Positions 1-52,922 of a stretch of 64,000 nt of DNA are shown here, piece after piece. The stretch's first letter is position 1, and the number at the start of each line of letters is the position of its first letter. The stretch comes from an uncultured bacterium (GTDB lineage: Bacteria > Patescibacteriota > Minisyncoccia > UBA6257 > 2-01-FULL-56-20). The notes under the pieces were generated by a model that did no database searches, was not told where the DNA came from, and saw nothing but the letters and a program-made list of their open reading frames with translations. Location of the stretch: contig OY970175.1 in the NCBI GenBank assembly GCA_963707865.1, positions 144,748 to 208,747 on the forward strand, in the 5' to 3' direction. The translations under genes and the position numbers were made by a program.

Positions 1-462
1 GATTTTTACGCCTCGGTCCTCAAGCCAGAGGCCGTTTCCTTTTGAAGTACGTTTGCCGTTCAGGGCGCCGCCGATGTGTAAAAATTTTGTGATGCGCGCG
101 GGGCCGTGCACGTGACACAACGTGCCCGTCCGAGAATCTTCATAGGCACCGGCGCGGATGAGGACGGCCGCGGGATAGCCGCGCGGTCCCGTCACAATAT
201 TCACGAGCCAGTGCATCCCGTACGTGAAATACACGTAGAAATGGCCGGCCTCGTCGAACATGAGCTCATTGCGCGGCGTGCGGCCGCGGCTCGCGTGCGA
301 GGCCATATCGCGCGGTCCGTCGTATGCTTCCACCTCGGTCACCATGAGGGCGATCGTTTTCCCGCGATAGCGCCGCACGAGGTACTTGCCGAGGAGCGTC
401 TTCGCGACCACAACCGTAGGTCTATTAAAAAACGAAAGAGGGAGTGCTTTTTTTGTCGCCAT
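1..462 (-). CDS. DNA-3-methyladenine glycosylase (Mpg/AAG family), 5' part in window; gene runs off the left edge
   Basis: Reverse-strand translation from ATG (complement of 460-462): MATKKALPLSFFNRPTVVVAKTLLGKYLVRRYRGKTIALMVTEVEAYDGPRDMASHASRGRTPRNELMFDEAGHFYVYFTYGMHWLVNIVTGP... matches conserved Mpg blocks (EVEAY, ASHA, RNxxMF, YVYxxYGMH). Not in the ORF track because the stop lies outside the window. Confidence 0.8.
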   Translation of the reverse strand, partial: MATKKALPLSFFNRPTVVVAKTLLGKYLVRRYRGKTIALMVTEVEAYDGPRDMASHASRGRTPRNELMFDEAGHFYVYFTYGMHWLVNIVTGPRGYPAAVLIRAGAYEDSRTGTLCHVHGPARITKFLHIGGALNGKRTSKGNGLWLEDRGVKI

Positions 463-538
463 ACTATAATATTAGAGCACCTGCCTTACGTTTTTGACAG
501 CATCCATCTTCGCATGATGGCAAAAACGTAAGGCAGAT
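463..538 (+). promoter_or_regulatory. Divergent promoter region: TATAAT at 465-470 (+), and a perfect 15-bp inverted repeat (481-495 / 522-536, 26-nt spacer) that ends 2 nt before the zwf ATG
   Basis: ctgccttacgttttt ... aaaaacgtaaggcag are exact reverse complements. The spacer contains a nested CCATC...GATGG repeat. On the minus strand TAATAT sits 7 nt upstream of the mag ATG, which suggests a leaderless transcript. Confidence 0.4.
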
Positions 539-2971
539 GTGCACAAAATTATGATAGATGAGAGGAAACAAACCATTCCTACCATTCTCGTGGTCTTGGG
601 CGCCACGGGCGACCTTATGGCGAAAAAGATCGTGCCGGCGCTTTTTAACTTGCATACAAAAAAACATCTGCCGCCAAAGTTCAAACTCGTAGGCGTTTCA
701 AGGCGCGCGTGGGGCGACGACGATCTCCGTATACACCTCCGCACCATTCTTAAAGAGAGGGTATCGCGCGCCTCCGCCGCAACCGTACGATCATTCCTTA
801 ATCTCGCCGTGTATCATCGGTTGGCATTTGATTCGCCAAAGGACTACCTAGCGCTCAACGATCTTTTGAGTAAAATTGACGACACGTGGGGTATGTGTGC
901 GAACAAACTTTTTTATCTTTCGGTCCCGCCGCAGTTTTACTCGCTCATCCTTGCCCATCTGCACCGCAGCCATCTGACCGACGGCTGCGGTCCGAACGAG
1001 GGATGGACGCGCGTGATCGTGGAAAAGCCGTTCGGCAACGACGAGAAGAGTGCGAAGGCGCTTGACGCCCAACTTGTAAAGCTCTTCCGTGAGGAACAAG
1101 TTTATCGGATAGACCATTACCTGGCAAAGGAGATGTTGCAGAATATTCTGATGTTCCGGTTCGCGAACGATCTTTTTGAAAGCGAATGGACAAGCCGCAC
1201 GATAGAGCGCGTGCATATCCGCCTGTTTGAGCAGATCGGCGCGGAGGGACGTGGCGCGTTCTACGACCATGTGGGCGCTCTGCAGGACGTGGGCCAGAAC
1301 CATCTTCTGCAAATGCTCGCGCTCATCGCCATGGAGCGGCCCGCGCGGTACGATGCCCACGCGATCCGCCCGCTCCGCGCGGAGCTTTTGAGGTGTCTTG
1401 CCATTCAGACGCCCCGTGAAGCTGCGAAGAACTCGTTCCGTGCGCAATACGACGGCTACCGCTCCGTGCAAGGGATTGGTCCCCGTTCAAAAATCGAAAC
1501 GTACTTTCGGATCAAGGGGTTCCTCTCCGGCGCGCGGTGGGAAGGGATGCCGATCGTCATGGAAAGCGGGAAGCGCCTCGGCGAGCCGCAGAAAGAGATT
1601 GAGATCGTGCTGCGCCACGAACAGCCCTGCCTTTGCGGAGGGAAGGAGCACCATCACAACCGTATTTTCATCAACCTTGAGCCCACGGAGGGGATCACGA
1701 TCAGGTTCCATTCAAAGAAGCCGGGACACACGTTTGAGTTTGAAGAGCGGACATTGAACTTTGACTTCCGGAAATCGATCCGTCGTGCGCAATATACCGA
1801 GGAGTATGAGAAGCTGATCTTGGACTGCATCGCGGGCGACCAGACGCTTTTTGTTTCAAGCGAGGAGATCGCCGCGACGTGGAAGTTCATAGACCCGTTC
1901 ATCATTGCGTGGAAAAAGAACTTGGTCCCGCTACGGCACTATGCGCCGGGCGGCCGTAAGATTGTCGCCGAATCGGCGGCGTTTGATGATGCGGTGGAAA
2001 AAGATGGGATCCTAGCGCTTCCAAAGGAAATAGGAGTTTTTGGGCTTGGGAAGATGGGCGCGAACGTGGCGCGGCAGCTGCGCGATAAAGGATGGCGCAT
2101 CATCGCGGCCAATCGCTCGCCCGAGCCCTTGCAACAATTGGAGGACGAAGATTTTGAAGCGGCGTATTCTCTCGCGGAACTTGTGGCGAAGCTCACGGTG
2201 CCGCGAAGACATTCGCCGCGCGTGATCTGGCTCATGATCACTGCCGGAAAAGGAGTGGACGAATTTCTCTTCGGGACTCGCGGTAAGGACGGCCTTGTAA
2301 AGCATCTCCAAAAAGGTGACATTGTGATAGACGCCGGCAATTCGTTTTTTGAAGACAGCATGCGGCGCGCGAAGCTACTCGGCAAACATGGCATCCGGTT
2401 CATGGACGTGGGTTTCTCGGGAGGCCCGCGCGGCGCGCGCTACGGCGGCTCGCTCATGGTCGGCGGCGACCAGAAAACGTTTGAATATTTAGAGCCGCTC
2501 TTTGCCGACCTCTCCGTGCCCTTGGGCTATGCGTATTTCGGCGATGCGGGCGCAGGCCATTTTGTGAAGATGGTTCACAATGGCATTGAGTACGGCATGA
2601 TGCAGTCCTTAGCGGAAGGTTTCGCGCTCATGAAAAAGTCCCCATTCAAATTAGATCTCGCAAAAGTGGCGCGCGTCTATAACCGCGGCAGTGTCATAGA
2701 GTCGCGTCTTGTCGGGTGGATGGAAGACGCGTTCCGCATTTATGGCAAGGAACTGCATGCGGTATCCGGCACGGTCGCCGCGACCGGCGAGGGTGAATGG
2801 ACCCTAAAGACCGGCCGCAAGTGGCGCGTGAAACTACCTGCAATAGAAGACGCATTCAAATTCCGCATGCGTTCGCAACGCGCGCCGAGCTATATGGGCC
2901 GAATCCTCTCTGCGCTCCGCAACCGCTTCGGTGGTCATGCAGTGGGGAAAAGAAATAAAACAAAAAAATGA
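539..2971 (+). CDS. zwf: Fused glucose-6-phosphate 1-dehydrogenase (N-terminal ~480 aa) and decarboxylating 6-phosphogluconate dehydrogenase, short YqeC/GndA type (C-terminal ~320 aa)
   Basis: N-terminal part has the G6PD fingerprints LVVLGATGDLMAKKIVPALFNL and RIDHYLAKEMLQNILMFRFAN. C-terminal part has the 6PGDH fingerprints GLGKMGANVARQL, IVIDAGNSFFEDS, GFSGGPRGARYGGSLMVGGD and GAGHFVKMVHNGIEYGMMQSLAEG. Single uninterrupted 810-aa ORF. Start could be ATG 539 or ATG 551. Confidence 0.85.
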   Translation: MHKIMIDERKQTIPTILVVLGATGDLMAKKIVPALFNLHTKKHLPPKFKLVGVSRRAWGDDDLRIHLRTILKERVSRASAATVRSFLNLAVYHRLAFDSPKDYLALNDLLSKIDDTWGMCANKLFYLSVPPQFYSLILAHLHRSHLTDGCGPNEGWTRVIVEKPFGNDEKSAKALDAQLVKLFREEQVYRIDHYLAKEMLQNILMFRFANDLFESEWTSRTIERVHIRLFEQIGAEGRGAFYDHVGALQDVGQNHLLQMLALIAMERPARYDAHAIRPLRAELLRCLAIQTPREAAKNSFRAQYDGYRSVQGIGPRSKIETYFRIKGFLSGARWEGMPIVMESGKRLGEPQKEIEIVLRHEQPCLCGGKEHHHNRIFINLEPTEGITIRFHSKKPGHTFEFEERTLNFDFRKSIRRAQYTEEYEKLILDCIAGDQTLFVSSEEIAATWKFIDPFIIAWKKNLVPLRHYAPGGRKIVAESAAFDDAVEKDGILALPKEIGVFGLGKMGANVARQLRDKGWRIIAANRSPEPLQQLEDEDFEAAYSLAELVAKLTVPRRHSPRVIWLMITAGKGVDEFLFGTRGKDGLVKHLQKGDIVIDAGNSFFEDSMRRAKLLGKHGIRFMDVGFSGGPRGARYGGSLMVGGDQKTFEYLEPLFADLSVPLGYAYFGDAGAGHFVKMVHNGIEYGMMQSLAEGFALMKKSPFKLDLAKVARVYNRGSVIESRLVGWMEDAFRIYGKELHAVSGTVAATGEGEWTLKTGRKWRVKLPAIEDAFKFRMRSQRAPSYMGRILSALRNRFGGHAVGKRNKTKK

Positions 2972-3636
2972 AAATCGTCGTGTTGCATGGTTGGGGAGAG
3001 GATAAAAGGTTTTGGGATACCTTCGCCGCTTCTTTTCGGAAAGGGGACGTTGTGGTATTTGATCTTCCCGGCTTTGGGAGTGAACCGAGCACGGTCCCGG
3101 ATTGGGGCATCCCGGAATACGCCGAATGGGTGAGATCAAAAATAGAAAGCATTCCTCCGGAGGGGAACGATATTGTACTTCTTGGTCACTCCTTCGGCGG
3201 AAGGATCGCAAGTTATATCGCGAGCCAGAGTCCCTATTGGCTTAAAGGACTGGTCCTCTATGCCGCGCCGTCCATACGGCGGCCTAAGCTTTCCATTCGC
3301 CTCAAGATTGCAGGTGCACACGTTTTGAAAGCATTTGGTGTTCGTGGGCGGGGGGGCAATCCGGAGCTGCGGGAGGCCGAGCAAAAAGGAATGGGAAAAC
3401 TTTTTCGGAAAGCGGTCTCCTTTGATCAAACCGCCCTCTTGAAGAAGATTAAAGTCCCCACACTCCTTCTCTGGGGAGAGAAAGATGCCGTGGTCCCCTT
3501 GAGTATTGCGCGCGAGATGCAGCGATTGATTCCAAAGAGCGAGCTCACGACGATAGAAAGGGCGGGGCACAGTGCCCATCTCAAAAATCCTCATTTGTTC
3601 TATGGCATCGTCAAACGTTTTATTGAAGGCCTTTAA
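2968..3636 (+). CDS. Alpha/beta-hydrolase fold protein, translationally coupled to zwf-gnd (ATGA overlap)
   Basis: GHSFGG nucleophile elbow, and a length and topology typical of small esterases/lipases. The start overlaps the upstream stop by 4 nt. Confidence 0.75.
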   Translation: MKIVVLHGWGEDKRFWDTFAASFRKGDVVVFDLPGFGSEPSTVPDWGIPEYAEWVRSKIESIPPEGNDIVLLGHSFGGRIASYIASQSPYWLKGLVLYAAPSIRRPKLSIRLKIAGAHVLKAFGVRGRGGNPELREAEQKGMGKLFRKAVSFDQTALLKKIKVPTLLLWGEKDAVVPLSIAREMQRLIPKSELTTIERAGHSAHLKNPHLFYGIVKRFIEGL

Positions 3637-4957
3637 TATCCTTTTTCCCTTCGGAGATTTTCTCTATATCCTCCAGCAGGAGGATTATAGCAGTCGTCGG
3701 TATTTAAAATGGCTGCCGCGGTTTTTTTTGCGGCGCAACATTCAGGCACGGGATCACCTGCGTTACACGACACGCGCCGGCGCAATCCTTGTGATCGCTC
3801 TTCTGCTTTGGCTTGCGTCGCTTGCGGGAGTGTTTTTCAACCAGTATGCTTGGTCCGCGTGGACGGTCGCGGCAATAGTGTGGTTGCTTGCGGTGCCGAT
3901 GTTCGTACTCGCAGCAAATATTGTTTCTATGCCGCTCTATCTGCCATTCAGGTACGCGCGTATACGCCGGGCCGCAGAAAAGGTGCGTGCGGTGAATGGC
4001 CTGCGCATTGTAACGATCGCGGGAAGTTTTGGTAAGACGACGACGAAGAATTTCCTGTACGAACTTGTGCGGCACCATGCGGCGGTCCAGATGATATCGG
4101 GAAATGTGAACACGCCATTAGGCATTGCGGGATGGATCATGGAACATCTGCGTTCCGATACGGAGATTTTGATCGCGGAGGTAGATGCCTATCGGGCGGG
4201 CGAGATCAGGGAAGGTTGCCGCATTGTGCCTGCCGATGTCGCCATTCTTACAAGCATCGGGCATCAACATATGGAACGTTTCGAGAGTGTTCCGCGCCTG
4301 GCCGCGGCGCTCGGTGAGGTTTTTACCTACGCGAAGCCGGGAGCAAAGTTGCTCGCACCGCCCGACGTTGCGCGCATGTTGGATCCTCTACTCGGCGGGC
4401 GACAAGCGATCGTGGTGAACAAGGAGGATATGACGGGTACGGGTTTGCACCTCTCGACATCAGCCCGTTCCGACCTTGCGCTTGCCGCACGGGCTGCGGA
4501 GCTCTTGGGCGCGCCGGAAAGATTTGTTAAAGATGCAGCCCAAAAGCTCACACTTCCCGACCGCCGCCAAAAGGCGACCGTGTGGCATGGCTACGATTGT
4601 ATTGATGATTCCTATAATATCAGTTTCCCGACCGCGCAGGCGGGAATCGCAGCCGTGGAATCGTTGGCGCGCGAAAAAGGAAAAAAGCTTCTTACGGTCA
4701 CCGCGGGGATTCCGGAGCTCGGACCGGCGGACAAGAACGGGAACGAACGCTTGGGAATGCTGCTTGCAGAAAAAGCCGATCACGTCGTGGTACTCAAAAG
4801 TATATTTGCGCAGGACATCGCCCTCGGCATTCCGGATCAAGAAAAATACACGGTCGTCACAAACCTCAATGCTTTTATTGAAATGGCCCCGAAGCGCTTT
4901 CCGCCGGAGCGGTGGGCGCTTTTACTGGAACCAGAACTCACCGACCTCTATTACTGA
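3572..4957 (+). CDS. Mur-ligase-family protein with an N-terminal multi-pass membrane domain (MurF/CapB-like)
   Basis: About 130 aa of hydrophobic helices, then the Mur ligase P-loop GSFGKTTTK and a central-domain-like block (DAYRAGE...ILTSIGHQHMERF). The true start may be an internal ATG near 3602, because the 5' end overlaps the upstream gene. Confidence 0.65.
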   Translation: MPISKILICSMASSNVLLKAFNILFPFGDFLYILQQEDYSSRRYLKWLPRFFLRRNIQARDHLRYTTRAGAILVIALLLWLASLAGVFFNQYAWSAWTVAAIVWLLAVPMFVLAANIVSMPLYLPFRYARIRRAAEKVRAVNGLRIVTIAGSFGKTTTKNFLYELVRHHAAVQMISGNVNTPLGIAGWIMEHLRSDTEILIAEVDAYRAGEIREGCRIVPADVAILTSIGHQHMERFESVPRLAAALGEVFTYAKPGAKLLAPPDVARMLDPLLGGRQAIVVNKEDMTGTGLHLSTSARSDLALAARAAELLGAPERFVKDAAQKLTLPDRRQKATVWHGYDCIDDSYNISFPTAQAGIAAVESLAREKGKKLLTVTAGIPELGPADKNGNERLGMLLAEKADHVVVLKSIFAQDIALGIPDQEKYTVVTNLNAFIEMAPKRFPPERWALLLEPELTDLYY

Positions 4958-4970
4958 TACTGATCAGCGA

Positions 4971-6098
4971 TCACTGATTGACGAACCGTTCCACGATGTC
5001 GGTCTTGTAATCAAGGTGTAAACGGCTTGCATGTTCCGCGTCTTCCACCGCCTGCAGAATGAGCTCGGAAATCTGCTGTTTGAAGGGGATCCCGCTCGCT
5101 TCCCAAAGGTAGAACGCCATAGAGCCCGGGATGGGGTTCAATTCCGTAAGGTAGAGCTTATGGTCGCTCGCGTACATAAAGTCTGCCCGGATCATGCCTT
5201 TGCCGCGGCATGCGACGAACGCCTTCTTCGCCAGTTCCTGTATTTTTTGCTTCAGGTCATCGTCAATTTTCGCGGGAAGTTCGCGATTGAGGGACGCCAT
5301 GCCTCCCTGCATCTTTTTTCCTCCGCGCTCGTATTTGTCCGCGAAGCTTAAGATTTCCTCGTTTGAAAAAGGCCGTTCTACTTCACTCGCCTCAATATTG
5401 CCGTGCAGGAGCCGCACCGCGCAGTTGTATTCCACGAAAGAGGACAAGTATTTTTCCACAAGGATCTCCTTGTCCATCGCGGCCGCTTCAAGGAGGGATT
5501 TTTCCAGCTCCACCTCCGCGCGGGCGATTTTGATGCCGATGCTTGAACCGAGATGCGCGGGCTTCACGATGACGGGAAGGCCAAGGCGGCCAGTAATTTT
5601 TTTTGCGCACTGTTCGGAACCTGCTTTGATCTCGGACGAAAAAAGGTCCATCCCCGGCACGACGTCAATGCCGGCCCTGCTCACCGTCTCCTTCGTGAGT
5701 TCCTTGTTCATCATGACGACCGATGCTTCCTGGCCGGGGGAGGTGAAGGGGATGCCCACGGCTTCAAGCAGCCCTTGCATGGGGCCGGATTCCCCCTGTC
5801 CGCCGTGCAGCGCGAGGTATGCGGCATAGGGATAGATCTTCCGCAACGTACCTTTTATTTTTATAAAACCTCCGTTCGTGTCCCTGCTAAATGTGAAAGC
5901 CCTCCGCGCCGCAGTGAGAAACTTTCGGCGGTCCCGGAGGCCAGGGATGCAAAGGAATTTCCCCGCCTTGTCTATATAGACCGCAAGCGGTTCATACATT
6001 TCCGTGTCAATGTTTTCTAGGGCTTGAAGGCCTGTCACGACCGAGACCTCGTGCTCCGCCGATACGCCGCCGAAGACCACGAGCACCGATTTTCTCAT
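4971..6098 (-). CDS. ddl: D-alanine--D-alanine ligase
   Basis: N-terminus VLVVFGGVSAEHEVSVVTG and ATP-grasp architecture. 375 aa. Confidence 0.9.
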   Translation of the reverse strand: MRKSVLVVFGGVSAEHEVSVVTGLQALENIDTEMYEPLAVYIDKAGKFLCIPGLRDRRKFLTAARRAFTFSRDTNGGFIKIKGTLRKIYPYAAYLALHGGQGESGPMQGLLEAVGIPFTSPGQEASVVMMNKELTKETVSRAGIDVVPGMDLFSSEIKAGSEQCAKKITGRLGLPVIVKPAHLGSSIGIKIARAEVELEKSLLEAAAMDKEILVEKYLSSFVEYNCAVRLLHGNIEASEVERPFSNEEILSFADKYERGGKKMQGGMASLNRELPAKIDDDLKQKIQELAKKAFVACRGKGMIRADFMYASDHKLYLTELNPIPGSMAFYLWEASGIPFKQQISELILQAVEDAEHASRLHLDYKTDIVERFVNQ

Positions 6099-6135
6099 AA
6101 TTTCAGTATAACTAAGAAAGCGCTATACTGAAAGC

Positions 6136-7110
6136 ATGATGCTGGATGACATAAAAAATTATGCGAAGCAGTTTGCATACGAACCGAAGGTAGAAAATGC
6201 CGCGAAGCTGAAGTGGAAGTTCACCAAGTTCGTGGTAATAGGTATGGGCGGGTCACACCTTGCGGCAGATATCATAAAGGCGTGGCACCCGGGGATGGAT
6301 ATCGTTGTTTGGTCAAATTACGGCCTCCCGCCGTTCCGCGAGAAGGATCTTAAAGAGCGGCTCGTCATCGCAAGTTCATACTCCGGCAACACCGAAGAAG
6401 TGATTGACGCCTTTCATGCGGCGCGGGCGAAGCGTCTCTCGGTAGCCGTCATCGCCTCGCGCGGGAAATTGATCGCGCTTGCGCAGAAGTTCAAGCTACC
6501 CTATGTGCAAGTCCCCGATTTTCACGCACAGCCGCGGATGTCCACGGGGCTTATGCTCATGGGAACACTCGCGCTTATAGGAGAGAAGACCTGGATTTGG
6601 GAAGCGCAGGAACTTGCGACCATGCTGCATCCCGTACGAGAGGAGTATCGCGGCCGCGAACTCGCGAAGCGGCTGCACGGATCAGTGCCGGTGATGTACG
6701 CCTCGCTTCGCAACGCCACGGTCGCGTATAACTGGAAAGTAAGGTTCAACGAAACGGGAAAAATTCCCGCATTTTGCAATGTGGTTCCCGAAATGAACCA
6801 TAACGAAATGACGGGTTTTGACGTCAAGGAGCGCACCGCGTCGCTTTCACGCAATCTCCACTTTGTATTTTTAAAAGACGGCGGCGACGATCAACGCATC
6901 ACAAAGCGCATGAGCGTTTTGGAGAAGCTCTACAAAGACCGCGGCTTCAAGGTGGAGGTCGTCCTCCTCCAGGGCAAGAATGAGCTCCATAAGATATTCA
7001 CCGCGCTCAACCTCGCCGACTGGACGGCGTACTACACCGCGAAGCTCTACGGCGTTGAACCCGAACAGGTGCCGATGGTGGAGGAATTCAAGAAGCTCAT
7101 CGGGCGGTAG
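6136..7110 (+). CDS. Bifunctional phosphoglucose/phosphomannose isomerase (SIS-domain, archaeal-type PGI/PMI)
   Basis: IGMGGSHLAADII SIS motif, 324 aa, typical size for PGI/PMI. Confidence 0.7.
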   Translation: MMLDDIKNYAKQFAYEPKVENAAKLKWKFTKFVVIGMGGSHLAADIIKAWHPGMDIVVWSNYGLPPFREKDLKERLVIASSYSGNTEEVIDAFHAARAKRLSVAVIASRGKLIALAQKFKLPYVQVPDFHAQPRMSTGLMLMGTLALIGEKTWIWEAQELATMLHPVREEYRGRELAKRLHGSVPVMYASLRNATVAYNWKVRFNETGKIPAFCNVVPEMNHNEMTGFDVKERTASLSRNLHFVFLKDGGDDQRITKRMSVLEKLYKDRGFKVEVVLLQGKNELHKIFTALNLADWTAYYTAKLYGVEPEQVPMVEEFKKLIGR

Positions 7111-7131
7111 GGCGGTAAGATTCGCGCCGGT

Positions 7132-7695
7132 TCAAGCGAGATTTTTTTCCGAATAGGCCTTTCGGTAAACGTCGCGGAGTTTCAACGCCATCACAAAAAG
7201 AATATCGGAATAGGTGAGTGGACTCCCTTGAAATATCGGATACTCAAACGCAAAATTCTGCACCCTTTTGAATTCAGGCCTGTCCCTCGCTTCCATGAGG
7301 ACGTTCAGGCACTGTCGTTCCAATTCAAGGAGCGAGTTAAATTGCTTCTCGCGCAACGCGTTCATGAAATCGGGTTTCAGGGTTTCAAATAGAAGCCCGG
7401 CTCCGCTTTCTTTGAAGAGCTTTTCGCCGAGGGAGTTTACGGTTCTCGGGCTGTCCGTTCCCGAATAACAGGATTGCTTGATAATTTCCCTTTCTAGGAG
7501 AACGTTATTGAGCGTCATGAGGCCCATATTGATTCTGCGAAGCATTCTTTCAATTTTCGGGAAGGCACTATTCGTATGGTTCGTTCTTACCACGAACTTT
7601 GTGACCAAAGCACTTAAAGCGGCAGCCAAAATCACCGCTCCGATGAGCGGATAGTTCTTGTTGATTTCCTCTGCGATAATGACCAAGAATTCCAT
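7132..7695 (-). CDS. Hypothetical protein, N-terminal transmembrane helix
   Basis: 187-aa ORF with a hydrophobic N-terminus and lower GC than its neighbours. Divergent from the E1/GNAT operon across an AT-rich intergenic region. Confidence 0.5.
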   Translation of the reverse strand: MEFLVIIAEEINKNYPLIGAVILAAALSALVTKFVVRTNHTNSAFPKIERMLRRINMGLMTLNNVLLEREIIKQSCYSGTDSPRTVNSLGEKLFKESGAGLLFETLKPDFMNALREKQFNSLLELERQCLNVLMEARDRPEFKRVQNFAFEYPIFQGSPLTYSDILFVMALKLRDVYRKAYSEKNLA

Positions 7696-13916: not shown

Positions 13917-14677
13917 AGAACATTTTCGTCGTCGCAAAAAATACGTTCAAGCTTGAGCTTCGCGACAAGATTCTCTACGGCATCATCGTGTTCGCCCTGC
14001 TTTATATCTTCTTTGAACTTTTCCTTGCGAATCTGGTGCTCAGGGAGCTCCCAATGGTGAAAAGCTTCGGCCTCACCGGCATCTATTTCTTCAACGCGAT
14101 CATCGCGCTTTTCTTGGGTACTACGTCGTTCTTCAAGGACGTGGACCGCAAGGTGGTCTATTTCATCCTTTCAAAGCCGGTTTCGCGGGCGCAGTTCCTG
14201 CTCGGCAAGTTCGTGGGGCTCTGCGCGGTGCTCCTGCTCACGACCGCCATCCTTGGCGTCGCGTACCTTGGCCTCATCGCCTATAATCATGGCGGGTTTG
14301 ATGCGTTGGGTCTCGTCGCCATCATCATGCAATACCTTGAAATGGCGCTCTTCATCGCGTTCGCGCTTTTCGTTTCCACGTTCTCCAGCTCGCTCTTGTC
14401 CATCGTGTATACGTCCGCCGTGTTCTTCCTCGGCCACGTCGTAAGCTCACTCATTGCCGATGCGCAGGCAATCGGCGTCATGGGCATACAATATCGTCTC
14501 GTCCAAGTGTTCTATTACGTATTCCCGAACCTGGAAAAGTTTGACGTCCGCGCGCTTGCCATTCACGACGTCGCGACACCCTTTCTTTCCTTCGCTTTTG
14601 CGCTGGCCTATGCGCTCGCATACATCATTTTTCTCCTTGCAGCCTCCGTGTGGATTTTCAACCGGAAGGAAATTTAG
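13913..14677 (+). CDS. ABC-2-type transporter permease
   Basis: ATG 13913 overlaps the upstream stop (ATGA). Six predicted hydrophobic helices. The ORF-track start at 13790 is an in-frame upstream extension. Confidence 0.7.
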   Translation: MKNIFVVAKNTFKLELRDKILYGIIVFALLYIFFELFLANLVLRELPMVKSFGLTGIYFFNAIIALFLGTTSFFKDVDRKVVYFILSKPVSRAQFLLGKFVGLCAVLLLTTAILGVAYLGLIAYNHGGFDALGLVAIIMQYLEMALFIAFALFVSTFSSSLLSIVYTSAVFFLGHVVSSLIADAQAIGVMGIQYRLVQVFYYVFPNLEKFDVRALAIHDVATPFLSFAFALAYALAYIIFLLAASVWIFNRKEI

Positions 14678-14686
14678 ATTCTAGTC

Positions 14687-15556
14687 ATGCGATCGCTCTC
14701 GACCGGCGCGGTTTCCAAAACACTCTTTCTGCTTTTAATGCTCGGCTTGGTGATCGTTGCCCAATATGCGTACGATGCGACGCGCTTCGCGCCTTCCGCC
14801 GTGATTCTCGGGACATCCTCGCCCGAGATGGTGCGGATGGTGGATATGGGTTTCCATGCAGCAGTGGGGTCGTTCCTCTGGGCCGGAACGCTGCCGGAGA
14901 TTTTGGATTTTTTCCATGGGCGATCGGAGTATTTCCCAGACCTCGCTTTTCTGAATGGCGTGGATCCCAAACTGAGCTATCCCTATGCGTTCTCGGTGAT
15001 TACGCTTCCGGTGGTACCAAAACAGTTACTTCCCGACGCCGTGCAGCGGGCGCAGGCAATAGGGCAAGAGGGCATCGCGAACGCCGATCCCGATTGGCGT
15101 ATTCCGTACTACATGGCGATCAATTATTATCTGGAACTCAAGGATTTGAAAGACGCTACATGGTATTTTAATGTGGCCGCGAATACCCGAGGAGTTCCTT
15201 CGTACGCCGAGCGCTTCGCGTTGAACTTTGGTATCAGCCAAAAAGAGCGCGATCGCGTGCGGAATCTTTGGGCAACGGTGTACGAGAGTACCAACGATCC
15301 CGATACGAAGGCACGTGCCGCGGCGTACGTCACGCGGCTGAACGACTTTGATTATCTTGAGGCGGCGGCGAAAACGTACCAGCAAAAATACGGTTCATAT
15401 CCTACCTCCACCGATGCGCTCGTCGCGAAGGGTATCATCCCTGCGGTGCCGCAGGACCCGTTCGGATTCACGTTTACGATTGACAGTCAGACCGGCGTCG
15501 CGGGGTTGGACTACACGAAACTGCCGGCATACGTCACCGCCCTGCCGCAGCAATGA
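14687..15556 (+). CDS. Hypothetical membrane-anchored protein, third gene of the ABC operon
   Basis: 289-aa ORF with an N-terminal signal/anchor helix and no recognisable catalytic motif. Confidence 0.5.
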   Translation: MRSLSTGAVSKTLFLLLMLGLVIVAQYAYDATRFAPSAVILGTSSPEMVRMVDMGFHAAVGSFLWAGTLPEILDFFHGRSEYFPDLAFLNGVDPKLSYPYAFSVITLPVVPKQLLPDAVQRAQAIGQEGIANADPDWRIPYYMAINYYLELKDLKDATWYFNVAANTRGVPSYAERFALNFGISQKERDRVRNLWATVYESTNDPDTKARAAAYVTRLNDFDYLEAAAKTYQQKYGSYPTSTDALVAKGIIPAVPQDPFGFTFTIDSQTGVAGLDYTKLPAYVTALPQQ

Positions 15557-16424
15557 AGTCCCTTATTTTATTAACGACACTGGTCTCTTTGCCACGAAAG
15601 CCGTGCAGAGCGTTCGGGATGATTGAAATGATGGTTTGTTTTGATTGAACATTTTTTGTGAACCATCGGGCGATTTCTTTGGTATCGCGGTCACGGAATT
15701 CGTCGTTCCCCGCAAAAACGACAAGTAAGGGGATTTTTATTTTTCGGAGTGTCCGTGGCGTTTTCTTGGGTTGCGCGTAGGTAAAGATTTCTTCCTTGCT
15801 GTCCGGAGTGTTCAGACTCAGGAATCGTTGCGCGTCCAAAAGATTGGGCCAGATATTTTTCGGCATAAATTCATGAAGCCGCTTCTGTTTGACGAGCTGT
15901 TTGGCAACAGCCTGCGCACGTGCGAGCTTTCTTGGATCGGTGAATTTTTTGCTGTATGAATAATCGCTGATCGGGCAGAGAAGCGCCGCTCCTCGAATTT
16001 TTCTCTGTTTGTTTCTATGGCTCAAGTAATAGGCGATCTTCTGGCAGCCCGTAGAATGGCCGACAAGGTAAATTTCCTTCACGCTTTTCTTTAAAAGGAA
16101 GTTTACTGCTCCCTGGATATCATCAGTGCAGTCGGTAAATACTTCGTGGGTTTCGCCGGCGAGTTTCCGCGTATAACCTTTCTTCGAATTTCTTTTGATC
16201 TTCTTTATCCCCGTCACCTTGTCGTGCCCGCGATTGCTAAAAAAGATGATCGCGGTATTTTTGTCTGCGAGAGGGACGAGAAAGTCGTGGTTCGCAAAGG
16301 CGGTTGAAGCTAAACCATGTACGAAAACAATACCGCGTCGTGGCCAGTTACCGCCGAACCAAAGGCCGTCCAGAAGAAATTTCTTCGGCGTGACGATTGT
16401 GATTGGCAGACAGCGCTTTTCCAT
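15534..16424 (-). CDS. Alpha/beta-hydrolase fold protein
   Basis: GHSTG nucleophile elbow and FVHGLAST oxyanion-region motif. 296 aa. Confidence 0.75.
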   Translation of the reverse strand: MEKRCLPITIVTPKKFLLDGLWFGGNWPRRGIVFVHGLASTAFANHDFLVPLADKNTAIIFFSNRGHDKVTGIKKIKRNSKKGYTRKLAGETHEVFTDCTDDIQGAVNFLLKKSVKEIYLVGHSTGCQKIAYYLSHRNKQRKIRGAALLCPISDYSYSKKFTDPRKLARAQAVAKQLVKQKRLHEFMPKNIWPNLLDAQRFLSLNTPDSKEEIFTYAQPKKTPRTLRKIKIPLLVVFAGNDEFRDRDTKEIARWFTKNVQSKQTIISIIPNALHGFRGKETSVVNKIRDFIAAAGR

Positions 16425-42721: not shown

Positions 42722-43113
42722 AGAACCCGTGCGGAAATGACCGCTGTTTTACAACTGAATAGCAGTAGAGAGTTTTTTAGTTGTCCCAATTTATTCTTTT
42801 TTGGCAACGTTTTTGAGTGATCAAACAATGTTGCGTGGAATTCGTTCGAACCCCTCTATAGAGGGTTTGAATGAAAATTCAAATTCTTTTTAAAGAGGAT
42901 TTGATCCTGGTCCAGGATGAACGCTGGCGGCGTGGATAAGGCATGCAAGTCGAGCGCTTTATTTTTTGAAATTGTTTGCGATTACATCAAGAGCAGTGGA
43001 TGTTAATAAGGAGCGGCGAACGAGTTAGTAACACCTTGGTACGTACCTCAAAGACGGGCACAGCTCGCCGAAAGGCGGGGTAATTCCCGATATTGTCGCA
43101 AGACGAAAGTCGG

Positions 43114-43374
43114 TCCTCTCATTCAGATACTGTTTCGCTTTGGCGTAGCGAATTCTAACCAGATTCGCGACGCGAGGAGCGAAGTGTGCTGCATGTACAC
43201 GAGCGACGAGTAACAAAGAAGCTGGTTAGAATTCGCTACGCCCGAAGGGAAGCTAGCGAATAGCCGATTTCTTTGTCGCTCCTCCTCGAAGTGCACGTGC
43301 ACATCTTCGTCGTCGCTTCGCGAACTCGGCTATTCGCTAGCTTCCAAAGCTGAAACAGTATCTGAGTGAGAGGA
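43114..43374 (+). repeat. 261-nt highly self-complementary expansion segment inside the 16S V2 region
   Basis: Outer stem TCCTCTCATTCAGATACTGTTTC (43114-43136) pairs with GAAACAGTATCTGAGTGAGAGGA (43352-43374). Inner arms include the 19-bp pair CGTAGCGAATTCTAACCAG / CTGGTTAGAATTCGCTACG and the 20-bp pair GGAAGCTAGCGAATAGCCGA / TCGGCTATTCGCTAGCTTCC. No ORF. Confidence 0.6.
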
Positions 43375-44202
43375 CAGACGCTTTGAGATCGGCCTAGGCC
43401 CGATCAGCTAGTTGGTAAGGTAACGGCTTACCAAGGCTATGACCGGTAGGGGAGGTGAGAGCCTGACCCCCAACGACGAGACTGAGACACGGCTCGTACT
43501 CCTACGGGAGGCAGCAGTCAAGAACATTCGACAATGGGCGCAAGCCTGATCGAGCGACACCGCGTGCAGGATGAAGGCCTTCGGGTTGTAAACTGCGGTA
43601 ATATAGTAACAATGCAAATGAGTGCTATATGGAAAGAGGTGGGTAACTACGTGCCAGCACCAGCGGTAAAACGTAGACCTCGAGCGTTATCCGGATTTAT
43701 TGGGCGTAAAGAGCATGTAGGAGGTTTTGCGCGTCTTCTGTTAAAGCCCGGGGCCTAACCCCGGAAGTGCAGGAGATACGGCAGAACTAGAGGAGGTTAG
43801 AGGTGCATGGAACGCACGGTGTAGGGGTGAAATCCGTTGATATCGTGCGGAACACCAAAGGCGAAGGCAGTGCACTGGGACCTTCCTGACTCTGAGATGC
43901 GAAAGCGTGGGGAGCAAAAAGGATTAGATACCCTTGTAGTCCACGCCCTAAACGATGCCTGCTTGGTGTTTCGAGTATCGACCCTCGGAGTGCCGTAGCT
44001 AACGCGTTAAGCAGGCCGCCTGGGAAGTACGAGCGCAAGCTTAAAACTCAAAGGAATAGACGGGGACTCGCACAAGCGGTGGAACATGAGGTTTAATTCG
44101 ACAATAAGCGAGGAACCTTACCAGGGCTTGAAATTCTTGCTGACAGGTGTCCGAAAGGATGCCCTTCTCACAAGGACAGCAAGGACAGGTGTTGCATGGT
44201 TG

Positions 44203-44499
44203 ATTGAATCGACTCCTCTAGGGTCTAGAGGTAACACCCTTCAGTTCGTTCATGTTATGGACTGAAGAAAACTGGCTCATAACGGTGAAGTCCTATTTAA
44301 CAAAGAGTTAATCTTTGAAGAGTAGGATAATACCGTGGGAAGTGTGAACACTGAAATCAGCGTTCGCACCCCGTAGAGACTTTTTCCAAAAGGAAAAGAC
44401 GATAGCTTTTTAGTTGTCGTGAAACGCCAGCCCCAGCGTAATTTAAAAAATTACGGTTGGGTGAAGGTATAGTCCGTACCATTAGTAATAATGGAGTTA
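44203..44499 (+). other. ~297-nt insertion in the 16S between GCATGGTTG and TCGTCAGCTCGT (E. coli position ~1057); intron or expansion segment, no ORF
   Basis: The conserved flanks are contiguous in standard 16S sequences, and here they are separated by ~300 nt of non-rRNA-like sequence. A further ~50-nt extension lies at 44596-44655 in the helix-41 region. Confidence 0.5.
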
Positions 44500-45094
44500 T
44501 ATGGTCGTCAGCTCGTAGTTTGAACCGTTCCCTTAAGTGGGGTAACGAGCGCAACCCCTATCGAGTGTTACAAGTGTCACTCGGAACTGCCCAGCCCTGA
44601 GATGGAGAAAAAATTTCTTAGGTCAATTAGAAATTATTTCGCCTTTTCCGGGCTGGGAGGAAGGAGGGGATGACGTCAAATCCGCATGGCCCTTTGATGC
44701 CCTGGGCTACACTCGTGTTACAATGGCAGCGACAATGGGTCGCCAACCCGCAAGGGGGAGCTAATCCCATCAAACGTTGCCTCAGTTCGGATTGAGGGCT
44801 GCAACCTGCCCTCATGAAGCCGGAATCGCTAGTAATCGCGAATCAGCCACGTCGCGGTGAATACGTTCTCGAGTCCTGTACTCACTGCCCGTCACTGCAA
44901 GGAAGCCGGGAATATCTGAAATCTCCTTTTGGGGATAAGGGTAAGCTCGGTGACATGGCAGAAGTCGTAACAAGGCACGCGTAGCGGAAGCTGTGCGTGG
45001 ATCAATTAAACTAAGTCGATAACGCGCGGTTGCGCGTTAAGGTTGGGGCAACTAAAAAGCTCTTTGTGAATGTGATATAATAAGTATTACGAGC

Positions 45095-51937: not shown

Positions 51938-52922
51938 CACACACATATGGCGGACTAGGTTTTGAACTCGGCAAGCGCTTCGTTCGGCGTCTTGCCATTC
52001 AGGCCACAGTGTTCAAGGTTGTTGTACTCAGTATTCCACCATCGTACCCTTTGGCGCAAATCCTTTGCCGAAGCAAATGTTGTTTCGTGGTAGAGCGTTC
52101 TCTGGTCCGACCCATGCGAGCGTTCGACCTTGCCGTTCTGCGCGGGCTTCCCCGGATCGATGAGGTAGTGCACGATGCCGCGTTCGGCGCAGAAGCGGTC
52201 CAAAGCGTGTTGATGGGCAGGCGAAAGATCCGCCCGCTTGTACGTGCCCGTGTACCGGTTGGTGAAGGTCGCATGGTTGTCCGTCTTCACGCCGGTGATC
52301 CGATATTCAAATCGCCGGATGACATCCGCAAGAAAGAGGAGGGTGTTCTGCGTGGACTCTTCCTCGAAAATCCGGAGGTAGCGCCAGCGGGAGGCACAAT
52401 CGATCGCCGTATATTGAAAATATGCACGTCCCGCAACGGTTCCCGGCACATGCTTCACGTCGATCTCCATGAGGTCGCCAGGCTTCCAGGTGGCTTTGAT
52501 ATATTTGTACGTGATCTTTTTGGTACGATACTTCCGCACGAGCCTTTCTGTCTTCAAGATTTTTCCGATGGTGCGCTCATGGATATGGATGCCCACCTTT
52601 TCGAGCTTCCAATGCAGTTTGAGCGCGCAGACCTTTCTCTTCTTGCGCAACGCGATGATTGCTTCCTTGATGCTGATCGGTGTTTCCTTGGGCGAGGTCT
52701 TCGGCCGGGTGGAACGCGGTTCAAGCGCTGATTCACCGCCACGCCGGTATGCCTGCAGCCACCGCTCCAAGGTCCGCTTCCCATACGGAAACACCTTCAT
52801 CACTTCGGTGGTGCTTGTGCGACCTTTTACAATGGGTTCCACCCACCGCACCCGCTCTTGTTTGATATTCTCAGCCATATGGATCGACATTCCCCGATTG
52901 TACGGGAGTCCGCCATATGTGT
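51938..52922 (-). mobile_element. Intact insertion sequence (~985 bp) with perfect 20-bp terminal inverted repeats GCACACACATATGGCGGACT, encoding one DDE transposase
   Basis: Left end 51938-51957 and right end 52903-52922 are exact reverse complements. The transposase ORF fills the interior. Inserted 1 nt after the murA stop. Confidence 0.75.
51955..52890 (-). CDS. DDE transposase (N-terminal HTH plus rve/integrase-core domain; IS481/IS3-like)
   Basis: HTH-like N-terminus, then a D...D...E core (DVKHV..., TDNHATF..., ...E) spacing. 311 aa. Confidence 0.85.
   Translation of the reverse strand: MSIHMAENIKQERVRWVEPIVKGRTSTTEVMKVFPYGKRTLERWLQAYRRGGESALEPRSTRPKTSPKETPISIKEAIIALRKKRKVCALKLHWKLEKVGIHIHERTIGKILKTERLVRKYRTKKITYKYIKATWKPGDLMEIDVKHVPGTVAGRAYFQYTAIDCASRWRYLRIFEEESTQNTLLFLADVIRRFEYRITGVKTDNHATFTNRYTGTYKRADLSPAHQHALDRFCAERGIVHYLIDPGKPAQNGKVERSHGSDQRTLYHETTFASAKDLRQRVRWWNTEYNNLEHCGLNGKTPNEALAEFKT

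What the first reader, a model, noticed from the sequence alone, without database searches (positions are those of the whole stretch)
539..3636. Single-polypeptide fusion of G6PD and 6-phosphogluconate dehydrogenase, translationally coupled to an alpha/beta hydrolase (candidate substitute lactonase)
The 810-aa ORF has complete G6PD fingerprints (GATGDL...RIDHYLAKE) in the first ~480 aa. The last ~320 aa have complete short-form decarboxylating 6PGDH fingerprints (GLGKMGANVARQL, DAGNS, GFSGGPRGARYGG, GAGHFVKMVHNGIEYG).

That fuses step 1 and step 3 of the oxidative pentose-phosphate branch, with no canonical 6-phosphogluconolactonase (DevB/Pgl) visible nearby. The known G6PD fusions I am aware of are G6PD-6PGL (Plasmodium) and hexose-6-phosphate dehydrogenase (H6PD). 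A Zwf-Gnd fusion is unusual.

The next gene overlaps by ATGA and encodes a small alpha/beta hydrolase (GHSFGG). Serine-hydrolase-fold enzymes can act as lactonases, so it may supply the missing step 2.
Basis: partly seen in the sequence, partly recalled or inferred. Interest (0 to 1): 0.6.

Follow-up and report, generated by a model that had tools for sequence, protein, structure and literature searches.

The report
Bacterial fused G6PD–6PGDH enzyme gene

Summary
The 810-aa ORF (539–2971) is a genuine Zwf::Gnd fusion. Both halves are full length and score above curated cut-offs. Every catalytic motif is invariant in 120 fused homologs, and the segment spanning the linker (24–45 residues) varies in sequence and length but always stays in frame. 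It is not an assembly artefact.

The fusion is widespread in Patescibacteria (about a dozen clusters at 50% identity) and also occurs in a few high-GC Coriobacteriia-type loci. It appears to derive from adjacent zwf→gnd genes, an arrangement other Patescibacteria keep as zwf–gnd–pgl. Databases name it after one activity only. The only published precedent I found is a diatom G6PDH/6PGDH fusion.

The hydrolase-as-lactonase idea is not supported. The ATGA coupling is lost in relatives whose fusion protein is about 90% identical. Fusion-bearing relatives at 62–74% identity have PGI, not the hydrolase, directly downstream. In 7 of 7 contexts the hydrolase overlaps a MurF-like ligase gene followed by ddl, three of them with no fusion nearby.

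No pgl was found in the window or within ~10 kb in 22 fusion loci, against 6 of 12 unfused Patescibacterial loci. Whether fusion-bearing genomes lack a lactonase entirely could not be tested.

Verdict: a new variant of a known kind, of modest interest.

The parts
539..2971 (+). zwf::gnd fusion gene (810 aa from GTG 539, or 806 aa from ATG 551)
590..1957 (+). G6PD half (G6PD_N aa 18-202, G6PD_C aa 204-473). Contains GATGDL, EKPFG, RIDHYLAKE and the catalytic His in GQNHLLQ.
   Evidence: Motifs are 0.97-1.00 conserved in 120 homologs. Best PDB match is G6PD 9emm at 6.6e-86.
1958..2026 (+). Interdomain linker (aa 474-496)
   Evidence: 28% mean identity, against 62% and 69% for the two halves. The segment spanning it (reference aa 470-498) is 24-45 residues in homologs and always in frame. 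It has the lowest pLDDT in the model.
2027..2953 (+). Short-form decarboxylating 6PGDH half (aa 497-805). Contains GLGKMG, N-R-S at the end of beta2, SGG and HFVKMVHNGIEYG.
   Evidence: Best PDB matches are the short 6PGDHs 6vpb, 6xeq, 8ihe and 4e21.
6136..7110 (+). Archaeal-type bifunctional phosphoglucose/phosphomannose isomerase. It is the conserved downstream partner of the fusion in this clade and supplies G6P from F6P.
   Evidence: It lies directly downstream of the fusion in L085-L088 and near it in L081-83, L089 and L090.
2968..3636 (+). 222-aa alpha/beta serine hydrolase (Ser75, Asp173, His201). It belongs to a separate hydrolase-MurF-like-Ddl module inserted between the fusion and pgi, not to the pentose-phosphate unit.
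3602..4957 (+). MurF-like Mur ligase with a hydrophobic N-terminal region. It overlaps the hydrolase gene by 35 nt (the longest ORF starts at 3572).
   Evidence: The overlap with the hydrolase gene is conserved in all 7 contexts.
4971..6098 (-). D-Ala-D-Ala ligase, the third member of the inserted module

Best explanation
The 810-aa protein is a genuine bifunctional enzyme. Its N-terminal half is a glucose-6-phosphate dehydrogenase that converts G6P to 6-phosphoglucono-delta-lactone. A variable tether joins it to a short-form decarboxylating 6-phosphogluconate dehydrogenase that converts 6-phosphogluconate to ribulose-5-phosphate and CO2. Both halves are predicted to use NADP+. The fusion most likely arose in Patescibacteria by loss of the stop codon between adjacent, often overlapping, zwf and gnd genes. 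In the window's clade its conserved genomic partner is a phosphoglucose isomerase, so the ancestral unit converts F6P to G6P and on to Ru5P while yielding 2 NADPH. The main benefit of fusion is probably fixed 1:1 expression in a minimal genome rather than substrate channelling. The two reactions are not consecutive, and the model shows no confident inter-domain interface. The intermediate lactone is hydrolysed either spontaneously or by a lactonase encoded elsewhere in the genome. The downstream hydrolase is an active serine hydrolase belonging to a conserved hydrolase-MurF-like-Ddl module, presumably related to the cell envelope. That module was inserted between the fusion and pgi in this lineage. 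Shown here: domain identity, conservation, distribution and synteny. Inferred: enzyme activities, cofactor use, the origin of the fusion and the fate of the lactone.
For: Both halves are full length and score above curated cut-offs. In 120 fused homologs (57-100% identical) the catalytic motifs of both halves are invariant, while the linker varies in sequence and length and stays in frame. Single-ORF fusions occur in independent assemblies: L001, L002, L004-L015, L081-L090. At 50% clustering there are about 11 full-length fusion clusters plus fragments spanning the junction. Other Patescibacteria have separate zwf then gnd, overlapping by 4 nt or separated by 1-60 nt (for example L022, L023, L016), often followed by pgl. 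A midpoint-rooted NJ tree places these outside a mostly fused clade. PGI lies directly downstream in L085-L088. N-R of the N-R-S motif at the end of beta2 is invariant, whereas the solved short-form enzymes, one of them named NAD-dependent by its depositors, have Asp there. The AF2 model has mean pLDDT 84 but pTM 0.64 and a low-confidence linker. The hydrolase triad is invariant in 121 homologs. The hydrolase, an overlapping Mur ligase gene and ddl occur together in 7 of 7 contexts, three of them without any fusion nearby.
Against: No biochemical data exist for any member. Post-translational cleavage into two enzymes has been suggested for some diatom metabolic fusion proteins (PMC2173943) and cannot be excluded here. 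In E. coli lacking pgl, intracellular spontaneous hydrolysis did not sustain flux (bioRxiv 10.1101/2023.11.29.569206), so relying on spontaneous hydrolysis may be insufficient. The NJ tree has no support values and some 'separate' cases are truncated at contig ends. The hydrolase does sit near the fusion in at least 4 related genomes (window, L081, L089, L090), so a lineage-specific secondary role cannot be excluded.
Confidence: 0.85

Rival explanations
1. The hydrolase is a non-canonical 6-phosphogluconolactonase that is translationally coupled to the fusion and supplies step 2.
For: There is an ATGA overlap at 2968-2971 and the Ser-Asp-His triad is intact. Some alpha/beta-fold enzymes are lactonases, and the hydrolase shows weak similarity to PcaD enol-lactonase (66 bits). 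No pgl was found in the window or in the fusion loci. The hydrolase lies within a few genes of the fusion in L081, L089 and L090.
Against: The coupling is not conserved. DUF1653, NUDIX plus DUF1653, or opposite-strand HicAB intervene in close relatives. Four fusion-bearing relatives at 62-74% identity and 14 more distant fusion loci have no hydrolase within 8-10 kb. The hydrolase family always overlaps a MurF-like gene followed by ddl, including in genomes with no fusion nearby. The PcaD score is far below its cut-off (66 against 256), and the MenH, BioH and EstV matches are equally weak.
Confidence: 0.05
2. The single ORF is an assembly or sequencing artefact (a frameshift or lost stop codon) joining two separate genes.
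For: Separate adjacent zwf and gnd genes do exist in related Patescibacteria, with gaps of only 1-60 nt or 4-nt overlaps, so a single error could in principle join them.
Against: At least 120 independent 90%-identity clusters from NCBI, JGI, ENA and Logan assemblies have the same four-domain architecture. Linkers differ in length (24-45 residues over the aligned segment) yet all stay in frame. The protein 90% identical to the window's was read on 15 contigs.
Confidence: 0.01
3. The C-terminal half is a different beta-hydroxyacid dehydrogenase (HIBADH or tartronate-semialdehyde reductase type) rather than a 6PGDH.
For: It shares the NAD_binding_2 Rossmann domain and gives weak hits to HIBADH, tartronate semialdehyde reductase and NAD_binding_11.
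Against: It scores above the curated cut-offs for gnd_rel and NF007161, against 69.6 versus 291.6 for HIBADH. The 6PGDH signature HFVKMVHNGIEYG is invariant. The best PDB matches are all 6PGDHs. Unfused orthologs sit in zwf-gnd-pgl operons.
Confidence: 0.02
4. The fusion makes a dedicated lactonase dispensable, for example by keeping the lactone next to the 6PGDH site or by promoting its hydrolysis on the enzyme. This would explain why pgl disappeared from the operon in the fused clade.
For: Adjacent pgl was found in 0 of 22 fusion loci against 6 of 12 unfused Patescibacterial loci (Fisher p = 0.0007, not corrected for phylogeny). In the NJ tree five of the six pgl-linked unfused loci fall outside the mostly fused clade. 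No contig length is shared between 121 fusion contigs (five of them at least 800 kb) and the 120 listed Patescibacterial pgl hits. No other conserved neighbour could serve as a replacement.
Against: Whole genomes could not be searched, so pgl may simply lie elsewhere. Several unfused loci also lack an adjacent pgl (L003, L023, L024, L028, L033, L040). The AF2 model gives no confident interface (pTM 0.64). No extra domain or conserved linker motif is present. In the Slackia-labelled fusion locus L012 a neighbouring beta-propeller protein hits the YbhE-type Lactonase family (45 bits, partial match).
Confidence: 0.1

Closest known systems
G6PDH/6PGDH fusion protein of the diatom Phaeodactylum tricornutum (protein 54663 / XP_002183714; Kroth 2008 PMC2173943; Stover 2011 PMC3148214)
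   Same: One polypeptide combines steps 1 and 3 of the oxidative pentose-phosphate branch and skips the lactonase. The name indicates G6PD at the N-terminus. It is likewise an in-frame join of neighbouring genes across a short spacer.
   Different: It is eukaryotic and restricted to one species. Its gene model was disputed, and cleavage after translation has been suggested for some of the diatom fusion proteins. That genome keeps separate 6PGL and 6PGDH genes. The bacterial family is diverse and conserved. Whether the two fusions share an origin, and whether the diatom 6PGDH is the short form, was not tested here.
G6PD::6PGL bifunctional enzymes (Plasmodium GluPho, Giardia and Trichomonas G6PD::6PGL, metazoan H6PD)
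   Same: G6PD is fused to another oxidative pentose-phosphate enzyme, and such fusions are often annotated only as G6PD.
   Different: Those join consecutive steps 1 and 2 through a Glucosamine_iso-fold lactonase domain. The window protein has no such domain. H6PD (8em2) matches only the G6PD half.
Stand-alone Zwf plus short-form Gnd in zwf-gnd-pgl operons of other Patescibacteria (L016, L022, L026, L029, L037), and the solved short-form 6PGDHs 6vpb, 6xeq, 8ihe and 4e21
   Same: These are orthologous enzymes in the same gene order, with the same catalytic motifs.
   Different: They are separate polypeptides with an adjacent pgl. The solved short-form enzymes carry Asp at the end of beta2 (the NAD+ type), whereas the fused family carries Asn-Arg-Ser (the NADP+ type).

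Membership tests
Glucose-6-phosphate dehydrogenase (Zwf; TIGR00871, PF00479 + PF02781) | Full-length match to both domains above curated cut-offs | tested here: met
   G6PD_N covers profile positions 1-183 of 183 and G6PD_C 1-279 of 296. TIGR00871 scores 450.5 against a 400.6 cut-off.
Glucose-6-phosphate dehydrogenase (Zwf; TIGR00871, PF00479 + PF02781) | Dinucleotide fingerprint GxxGDL, EKPxG, the substrate motif RIDHYLGKE and the catalytic His | tested here: met
   GATGDL, EKPFG, RIDHYLAKE and GQNHLLQ are present. The key residues are 1.00 conserved in 120 homologs.
Glucose-6-phosphate dehydrogenase (Zwf; TIGR00871, PF00479 + PF02781) | G6P-dependent NAD(P)+ reduction | not testable with these tools
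   Needs an enzyme assay.
Short-form decarboxylating 6-phosphogluconate dehydrogenase (gnd_rel TIGR00872 / NF007161) | Full-length match above curated cut-offs, and discrimination from HIBADH-type relatives | tested here: met
   TIGR00872 scores 307.5 against 297.2 and NF007161 scores 325 against 271, over aa 497-805. HIBADH scores 69.6 against 291.6.
Short-form decarboxylating 6-phosphogluconate dehydrogenase (gnd_rel TIGR00872 / NF007161) | Catalytic Lys and Glu in the KMVHNGIEY motif, plus the SGG substrate loop | tested here: met
   H, K, M, V, H, N, G, I, E, Y and G of HFVKMVHNGIEYG, and S-G-G, are all 1.00 conserved.
Short-form decarboxylating 6-phosphogluconate dehydrogenase (gnd_rel TIGR00872 / NF007161) | Cofactor preference (TIGR00872 is named NAD+-dependent) | tested here: inconclusive
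   N-R-S at the end of beta2 suggests NADP+, unlike the Asp in 6vpb, 6xeq, 8ihe and 4e21. This is an inference from sequence only.
G6PD::6PGL fusion enzymes (GluPho, H6PD) | A 6-phosphogluconolactonase (Glucosamine_iso, PF01182) domain in the same chain | tested here: not met
   No PF01182 hit and no hit to the pgl profile.
6-phosphogluconolactonase (DevB/Pgl TIGR01198, or YbhE PF10282), tested as the identity of the 222-aa hydrolase | Glucosamine_iso fold or 7-bladed propeller fold | tested here: not met
   The hydrolase matches only alpha/beta-hydrolase families.
6-phosphogluconolactonase (functional analogue), tested as the role of the 222-aa hydrolase | Conserved genomic linkage with zwf and gnd | tested here: not met
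   Absent near 18 fusion loci outside the window's immediate relatives. It is linked instead to the MurF-like gene and ddl in 7 of 7 contexts.
Alpha/beta-fold serine hydrolase (PF12697 / PF00561) | Alpha/beta fold match and a GxSxG nucleophile with Asp and His | tested here: met
   Abhydrolase_6 at 83.7 bits and Abhydrolase_1 at 79.7 bits. Ser75, Asp173 and His201 are 1.00 conserved in 121 sequences.
Alpha/beta-fold enol-lactonase PcaD (TIGR02427) | Score above the curated cut-off | tested here: not met
   66.2 bits against a 255.85 cut-off. MenH, BioH and EstV are also far below their cut-offs.

The most novel reading that the evidence does not exclude
Fusion-bearing Patescibacteria have lost pgl genome-wide, and the Zwf::Gnd fusion itself compensates, either by retaining the lactone close to the 6PGDH site or by promoting its hydrolysis. 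That would be an oxidative pentose-phosphate branch that runs efficiently with two catalytic domains and no lactonase.
Probability: 0.1. Interest if true: 0.65.

Novelty: new variant of a known kind. Interest (0 to 1): 0.35.

Why it matters
Annotation pipelines name this protein after only one of its two activities. Metabolic reconstructions of Patescibacteria may therefore miss the 6PGDH step and understate their capacity for the oxidative pentose-phosphate pathway, which has been described as patchy in this group (PMC7304191). The fusion joins non-consecutive steps, and in the loci examined it coincides with loss of the adjacent lactonase gene. That makes it a natural test case for whether 6PGL is dispensable, a question reopened by work on E. 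coli lacking pgl (bioRxiv 10.1101/2023.11.29.569206). The compact NADPH-generating fusion could also be useful in enzyme cascades. The enzymes themselves are otherwise ordinary.

Tried and rejected
1. I looked up the window's own contig by exact protein. P0001 was not on record, and the hydrolase returned only a 1.5-kb contig. The rest of the roughly 899-kb genome therefore could not be searched for pgl.

2. I matched contig lengths between fusion contigs and pgl hits as a proxy for co-occurrence. No overlap was found. Only 120 of 264 pgl hits are listed, so this is weak evidence.

3. The promoter and terminator scan of 1-7300 found no more sites than in shuffled sequence and was uninformative.

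4. The AF2 model of the fusion gives no PAE or coordinates through this tool, so only pTM 0.64 could be used.

5. I searched for any other gene family recurrently linked to the fusion. Only PGI, within the window's clade, and what appear to be response regulators (a large generic family) recur. The other recurring clusters are mostly shadow ORFs or scattered unrelated families.

6. Literature searches for a natural bacterial zwf-gnd fusion returned only engineered co-expression constructs.

7. The frameshift-artefact and hydroxyacid-dehydrogenase readings were considered and rejected (see the rival explanations).
Full report
**Observation.**
The + strand ORF at 539..2971 encodes 810 aa from a GTG start. 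An ATG at 551 gives the 806-aa database form P0001. Pfam places G6PD_N (aa 18-202), G6PD_C (204-473), NAD_binding_2 (497-659) and the first 115 positions of 6PGD (673-781) along it. The shortened 6PGD match is typical of short-form 6PGDH.

NCBIfam equivalog models pass their curated cut-offs for both halves:
- zwf TIGR00871: 450.5 bits against 400.6, covering aa 15-474.
- gnd_rel TIGR00872: 307.5 against 297.2, and NF007161: 325 against 271, covering aa 497-805.
- HIBADH and tartronate-semialdehyde-reductase models score below 70 bits against cut-offs near 300.

The next ORF (2968..3636, 222 aa) overlaps by ATGA and is a generic alpha/beta hydrolase.

**Not an artefact.**
A search of 5.8 billion proteins listed 120 clusters, 57-100% identical and 781-844 aa long. 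All carry the same four domains, and the sources that give an organism name call them Paceibacterota, Minisyncoccia or Patescibacteria. Where a source names the protein, it gives only one of the two activities.

In an alignment of these 120:
- The catalytic fingerprints of both halves are invariant: EKPFG, D-H-Y..K-E, Q-N-H, GxGxMG, S-G-G and H..KMVHNGIEYG.
- The linker (aa 474-496) is only 28% conserved.
- The segment spanning it (reference aa 470-498) ranges from 24 to 45 residues and is always in frame.

That is the signature of a real, selected two-enzyme polypeptide. The protein 90% identical to the window's (P0002) was read on 15 contigs from different sources. No PDB chain contains both enzymes. 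The halves match G6PDs (9emm, 6.6e-86) and short 6PGDHs (6vpb, 6xeq, 8ihe, 4e21) separately.

**Distribution and origin.**
A scan of one genome per species returned 80 loci. Checking ORFs locus by locus gave three arrangements:
- True single-ORF fusions in L001, L002, L004-L015 and the partial L018.
- Adjacent but separate zwf then gnd in other Patescibacteria, overlapping by 4 nt or 1-60 nt apart (for example L022, L023, L016), and also in Bacilli and Mycobacterium.
- The opposite order, gnd then zwf, in Chloroflexota, Bacteroidota and Acidobacteriota.

An exhaustive search of 1.84 billion 50%-identity representatives found about 11 full-length fusion clusters, down to 38% identity, plus fragments that span the junction.

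A midpoint-rooted NJ tree of the Zwf halves, without support values, groups all the Patescibacterial sequences. Most lineages with separate genes and an adjacent pgl fall outside a mostly fused clade. Fusions in three loci with 64-68% GC, labelled Coriobacteriia, Actinomycetes and Slackia (L007, L008, L012), nest inside that clade, which suggests lateral transfer.

The simplest history is loss of the stop codon between translationally coupled zwf and gnd genes.

**What is linked to the fusion.**
In four fusion-bearing relatives at 62-74% identity, the gene directly downstream is the archaeal-type phosphoglucose/phosphomannose isomerase, and there is no hydrolase. In the window, the same PGI lies at 6136..7110.

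Between the fusion and PGI the window has three genes:
- the hydrolase;
- a MurF-like ligase, which overlaps the hydrolase by 35 nt if it starts at 3602;
- a convergent ddl.

So in this lineage a three-gene block sits inside an ancestral zwf::gnd-pgi pair.

**The hydrolase.**
Its Ser75-Asp173-His201 triad is invariant in 121 homologs, so it is probably active. It belongs to a large Patescibacterial family of roughly 213-244-aa proteins. Its best named matches (MenH, EstV, BioH, PcaD) are all far below their cut-offs, and PDB matches are generic esterases and lipases.

Synteny decides the question:
- In the relative whose fusion protein is 90% identical, DUF1653 separates the fusion from the hydrolase.
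- In the relative whose hydrolase is 82% identical, NUDIX plus DUF1653 intervene.
- In L090, opposite-strand HicAB genes intervene.
- In L091, L092 and L093 (Buchananbacteria) the hydrolase occurs with no fusion nearby.
- In all seven contexts the hydrolase gene is overlapped by a Mur_ligase_M gene, which is followed by ddl.

Four-base overlaps also occur at unrelated gene pairs in this window (12755 and 61378). The hydrolase therefore belongs to a hydrolase-MurF-like-Ddl module. The lactonase proposal has no comparative support.

**The missing step 2.**
I validated pgl probes from Bacteroidota-type operons (TIGR01198 at 157-199 bits against a 124 cut-off) and iterated a profile.
- pgl lies next to zwf and gnd in most of the non-Patescibacterial loci and in six unfused Patescibacterial loci (L016, L022, L025, L026, L029, L037).
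- It was not found in any fusion locus, nor anywhere in the 64-kb window, even at E<1 without filters.
- Pfam scans of about 58 window ORFs found no Glucosamine_iso, YbhE-type, SMP-30 or other lactonase-type domain, and no other pentose-phosphate gene.
- The contrast is 0 of 22 fused loci against 6 of 12 unfused, Fisher p = 0.0007. This is not corrected for shared ancestry.
This is weak evidence.
- No other gene family apart from PGI and an apparent response-regulator family recurs near the fusion.

I could not search whole genomes. The lactone is therefore handled by an unlinked pgl, by spontaneous hydrolysis or by something unrecognised, and this remains open. Work in E. coli argues that spontaneous intracellular hydrolysis is inadequate there (bioRxiv 10.1101/2023.11.29.569206).

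**Mechanism.**
- Both halves look NADP+-type. The G6PD half keeps the conserved Arg pair after beta2 (R51 and R52 in the 806-aa numbering, invariant).
- The 6PGDH half has N-R-S at the end of beta2 (N and R invariant). Solved short-form enzymes, including one that its depositors name NAD+-dependent (8ihe), have Asp at that position. Reading this as a cofactor signature rests on established Rossmann-fold rules.
- The AF2 model folds both halves well (mean pLDDT 84) but has pTM 0.64 and a low-confidence linker. A flexible tether is more likely than a fixed channel.
- I therefore favour co-expression and stoichiometry in a minimal genome as the benefit of fusion, with F6P to G6P to Ru5P plus 2 NADPH as the output of the ancestral pgi-linked unit.
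- In one fused locus (L013) the neighbours include two pyridine-nucleotide disulfide oxidoreductases and a DsbD-like protein. That fits a role in supplying NADPH, but it is a single case.

**Comparison with known systems.**
The closest precedent is the G6PDH/6PGDH fusion protein of Phaeodactylum (PMC2173943, PMC3148214), which in 2011 was reported as having no counterpart in nr. G6PD::6PGL fusions (Plasmodium, Giardia, H6PD) join consecutive steps and contain a domain absent here. I found no paper describing a natural bacterial Zwf::Gnd fusion. A survey of CPR metabolism notes only that the oxidative branch is patchy (PMC7304191).

**Verdict.**
- The fusion interpretation is supported.
- The hydrolase-as-lactonase interpretation is not supported.
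- This is a new bacterial variant of a known kind of fusion. It is common in Patescibacteria and under-annotated.
- Interest is modest (0.35). It would rise if whole-genome searches show that fusion-bearing lineages have no lactonase at all.

Noticed in passing
window 42889-45012 (+): The 16S rRNA gene spans 2,124 nt against a 1,533-nt Rfam model, so it carries about 590 nt of insertions. Small ORFs at 43534-43758 (+) and 43787-44038 (-) lie inside it. Such rRNA insertions are, to my knowledge, typical of CPR bacteria.
   Followed up: no
window 2968-6098; also L081, L089-L093: A conserved three-gene module occurs in 7 of 7 Patescibacterial contexts: a ~220-aa alpha/beta hydrolase, an overlapping MurF-like ligase and ddl. 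The ligase scores far below the murF cut-off (120 against 288 bits), and its first ~130 residues are hydrophobic and look membrane-spanning, in place of the usual MurF N-domain. The module's function is unknown.
   Followed up: partly
L007, L008, L012 (64-68% GC; labelled Actinomycetes, Coriobacteriia, Slackia): Single-ORF Zwf::Gnd fusions about 50% identical to the window protein sit in high-GC actinobacterial-type DNA and nest within the Patescibacterial clade in the NJ tree. This is a candidate inter-phylum gene transfer.
   Followed up: partly
L012:12660-14336 (-): Beside the Slackia-labelled fusion is a 558-aa beta-propeller protein with a partial hit to the YbhE-type 'Lactonase' family (PF10282, 45 bits) and a weaker one to SMP-30. 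It could be an alternative lactonase neighbour in that lineage.
   Followed up: no
P0426 (337 aa, 4.7-kb contig): One ORF carries Pfam hits for both the lactonase domain (PF01182) and G6PD_N. It may be a pgl::zwf fusion in a Patescibacterial relative, or a truncated gene call.
   Followed up: no
L013:7114-9359 and 14010-15434: A Patescibacterial fusion locus is flanked by two pyridine-nucleotide disulfide oxidoreductases and a DsbD-like membrane protein. This fits the fusion supplying NADPH to thiol-redox enzymes.
   Followed up: no
window 15534-16424 (-) and 51955-52890 (-): There is a second alpha/beta hydrolase (DUF1749 / Hydrolase_4) and an rve-family integrase (an IS element) elsewhere in the window.
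   Followed up: no
window 2027-2953 (6PGDH half): The fused short-form 6PGDH has Asn-Arg-Ser at the end of beta2 (the NADP+ type), whereas all four solved short-form enzymes have Asp there. Naming it 'NAD+-dependent' on the strength of the TIGR00872 match may therefore be wrong for this clade.
   Followed up: partly
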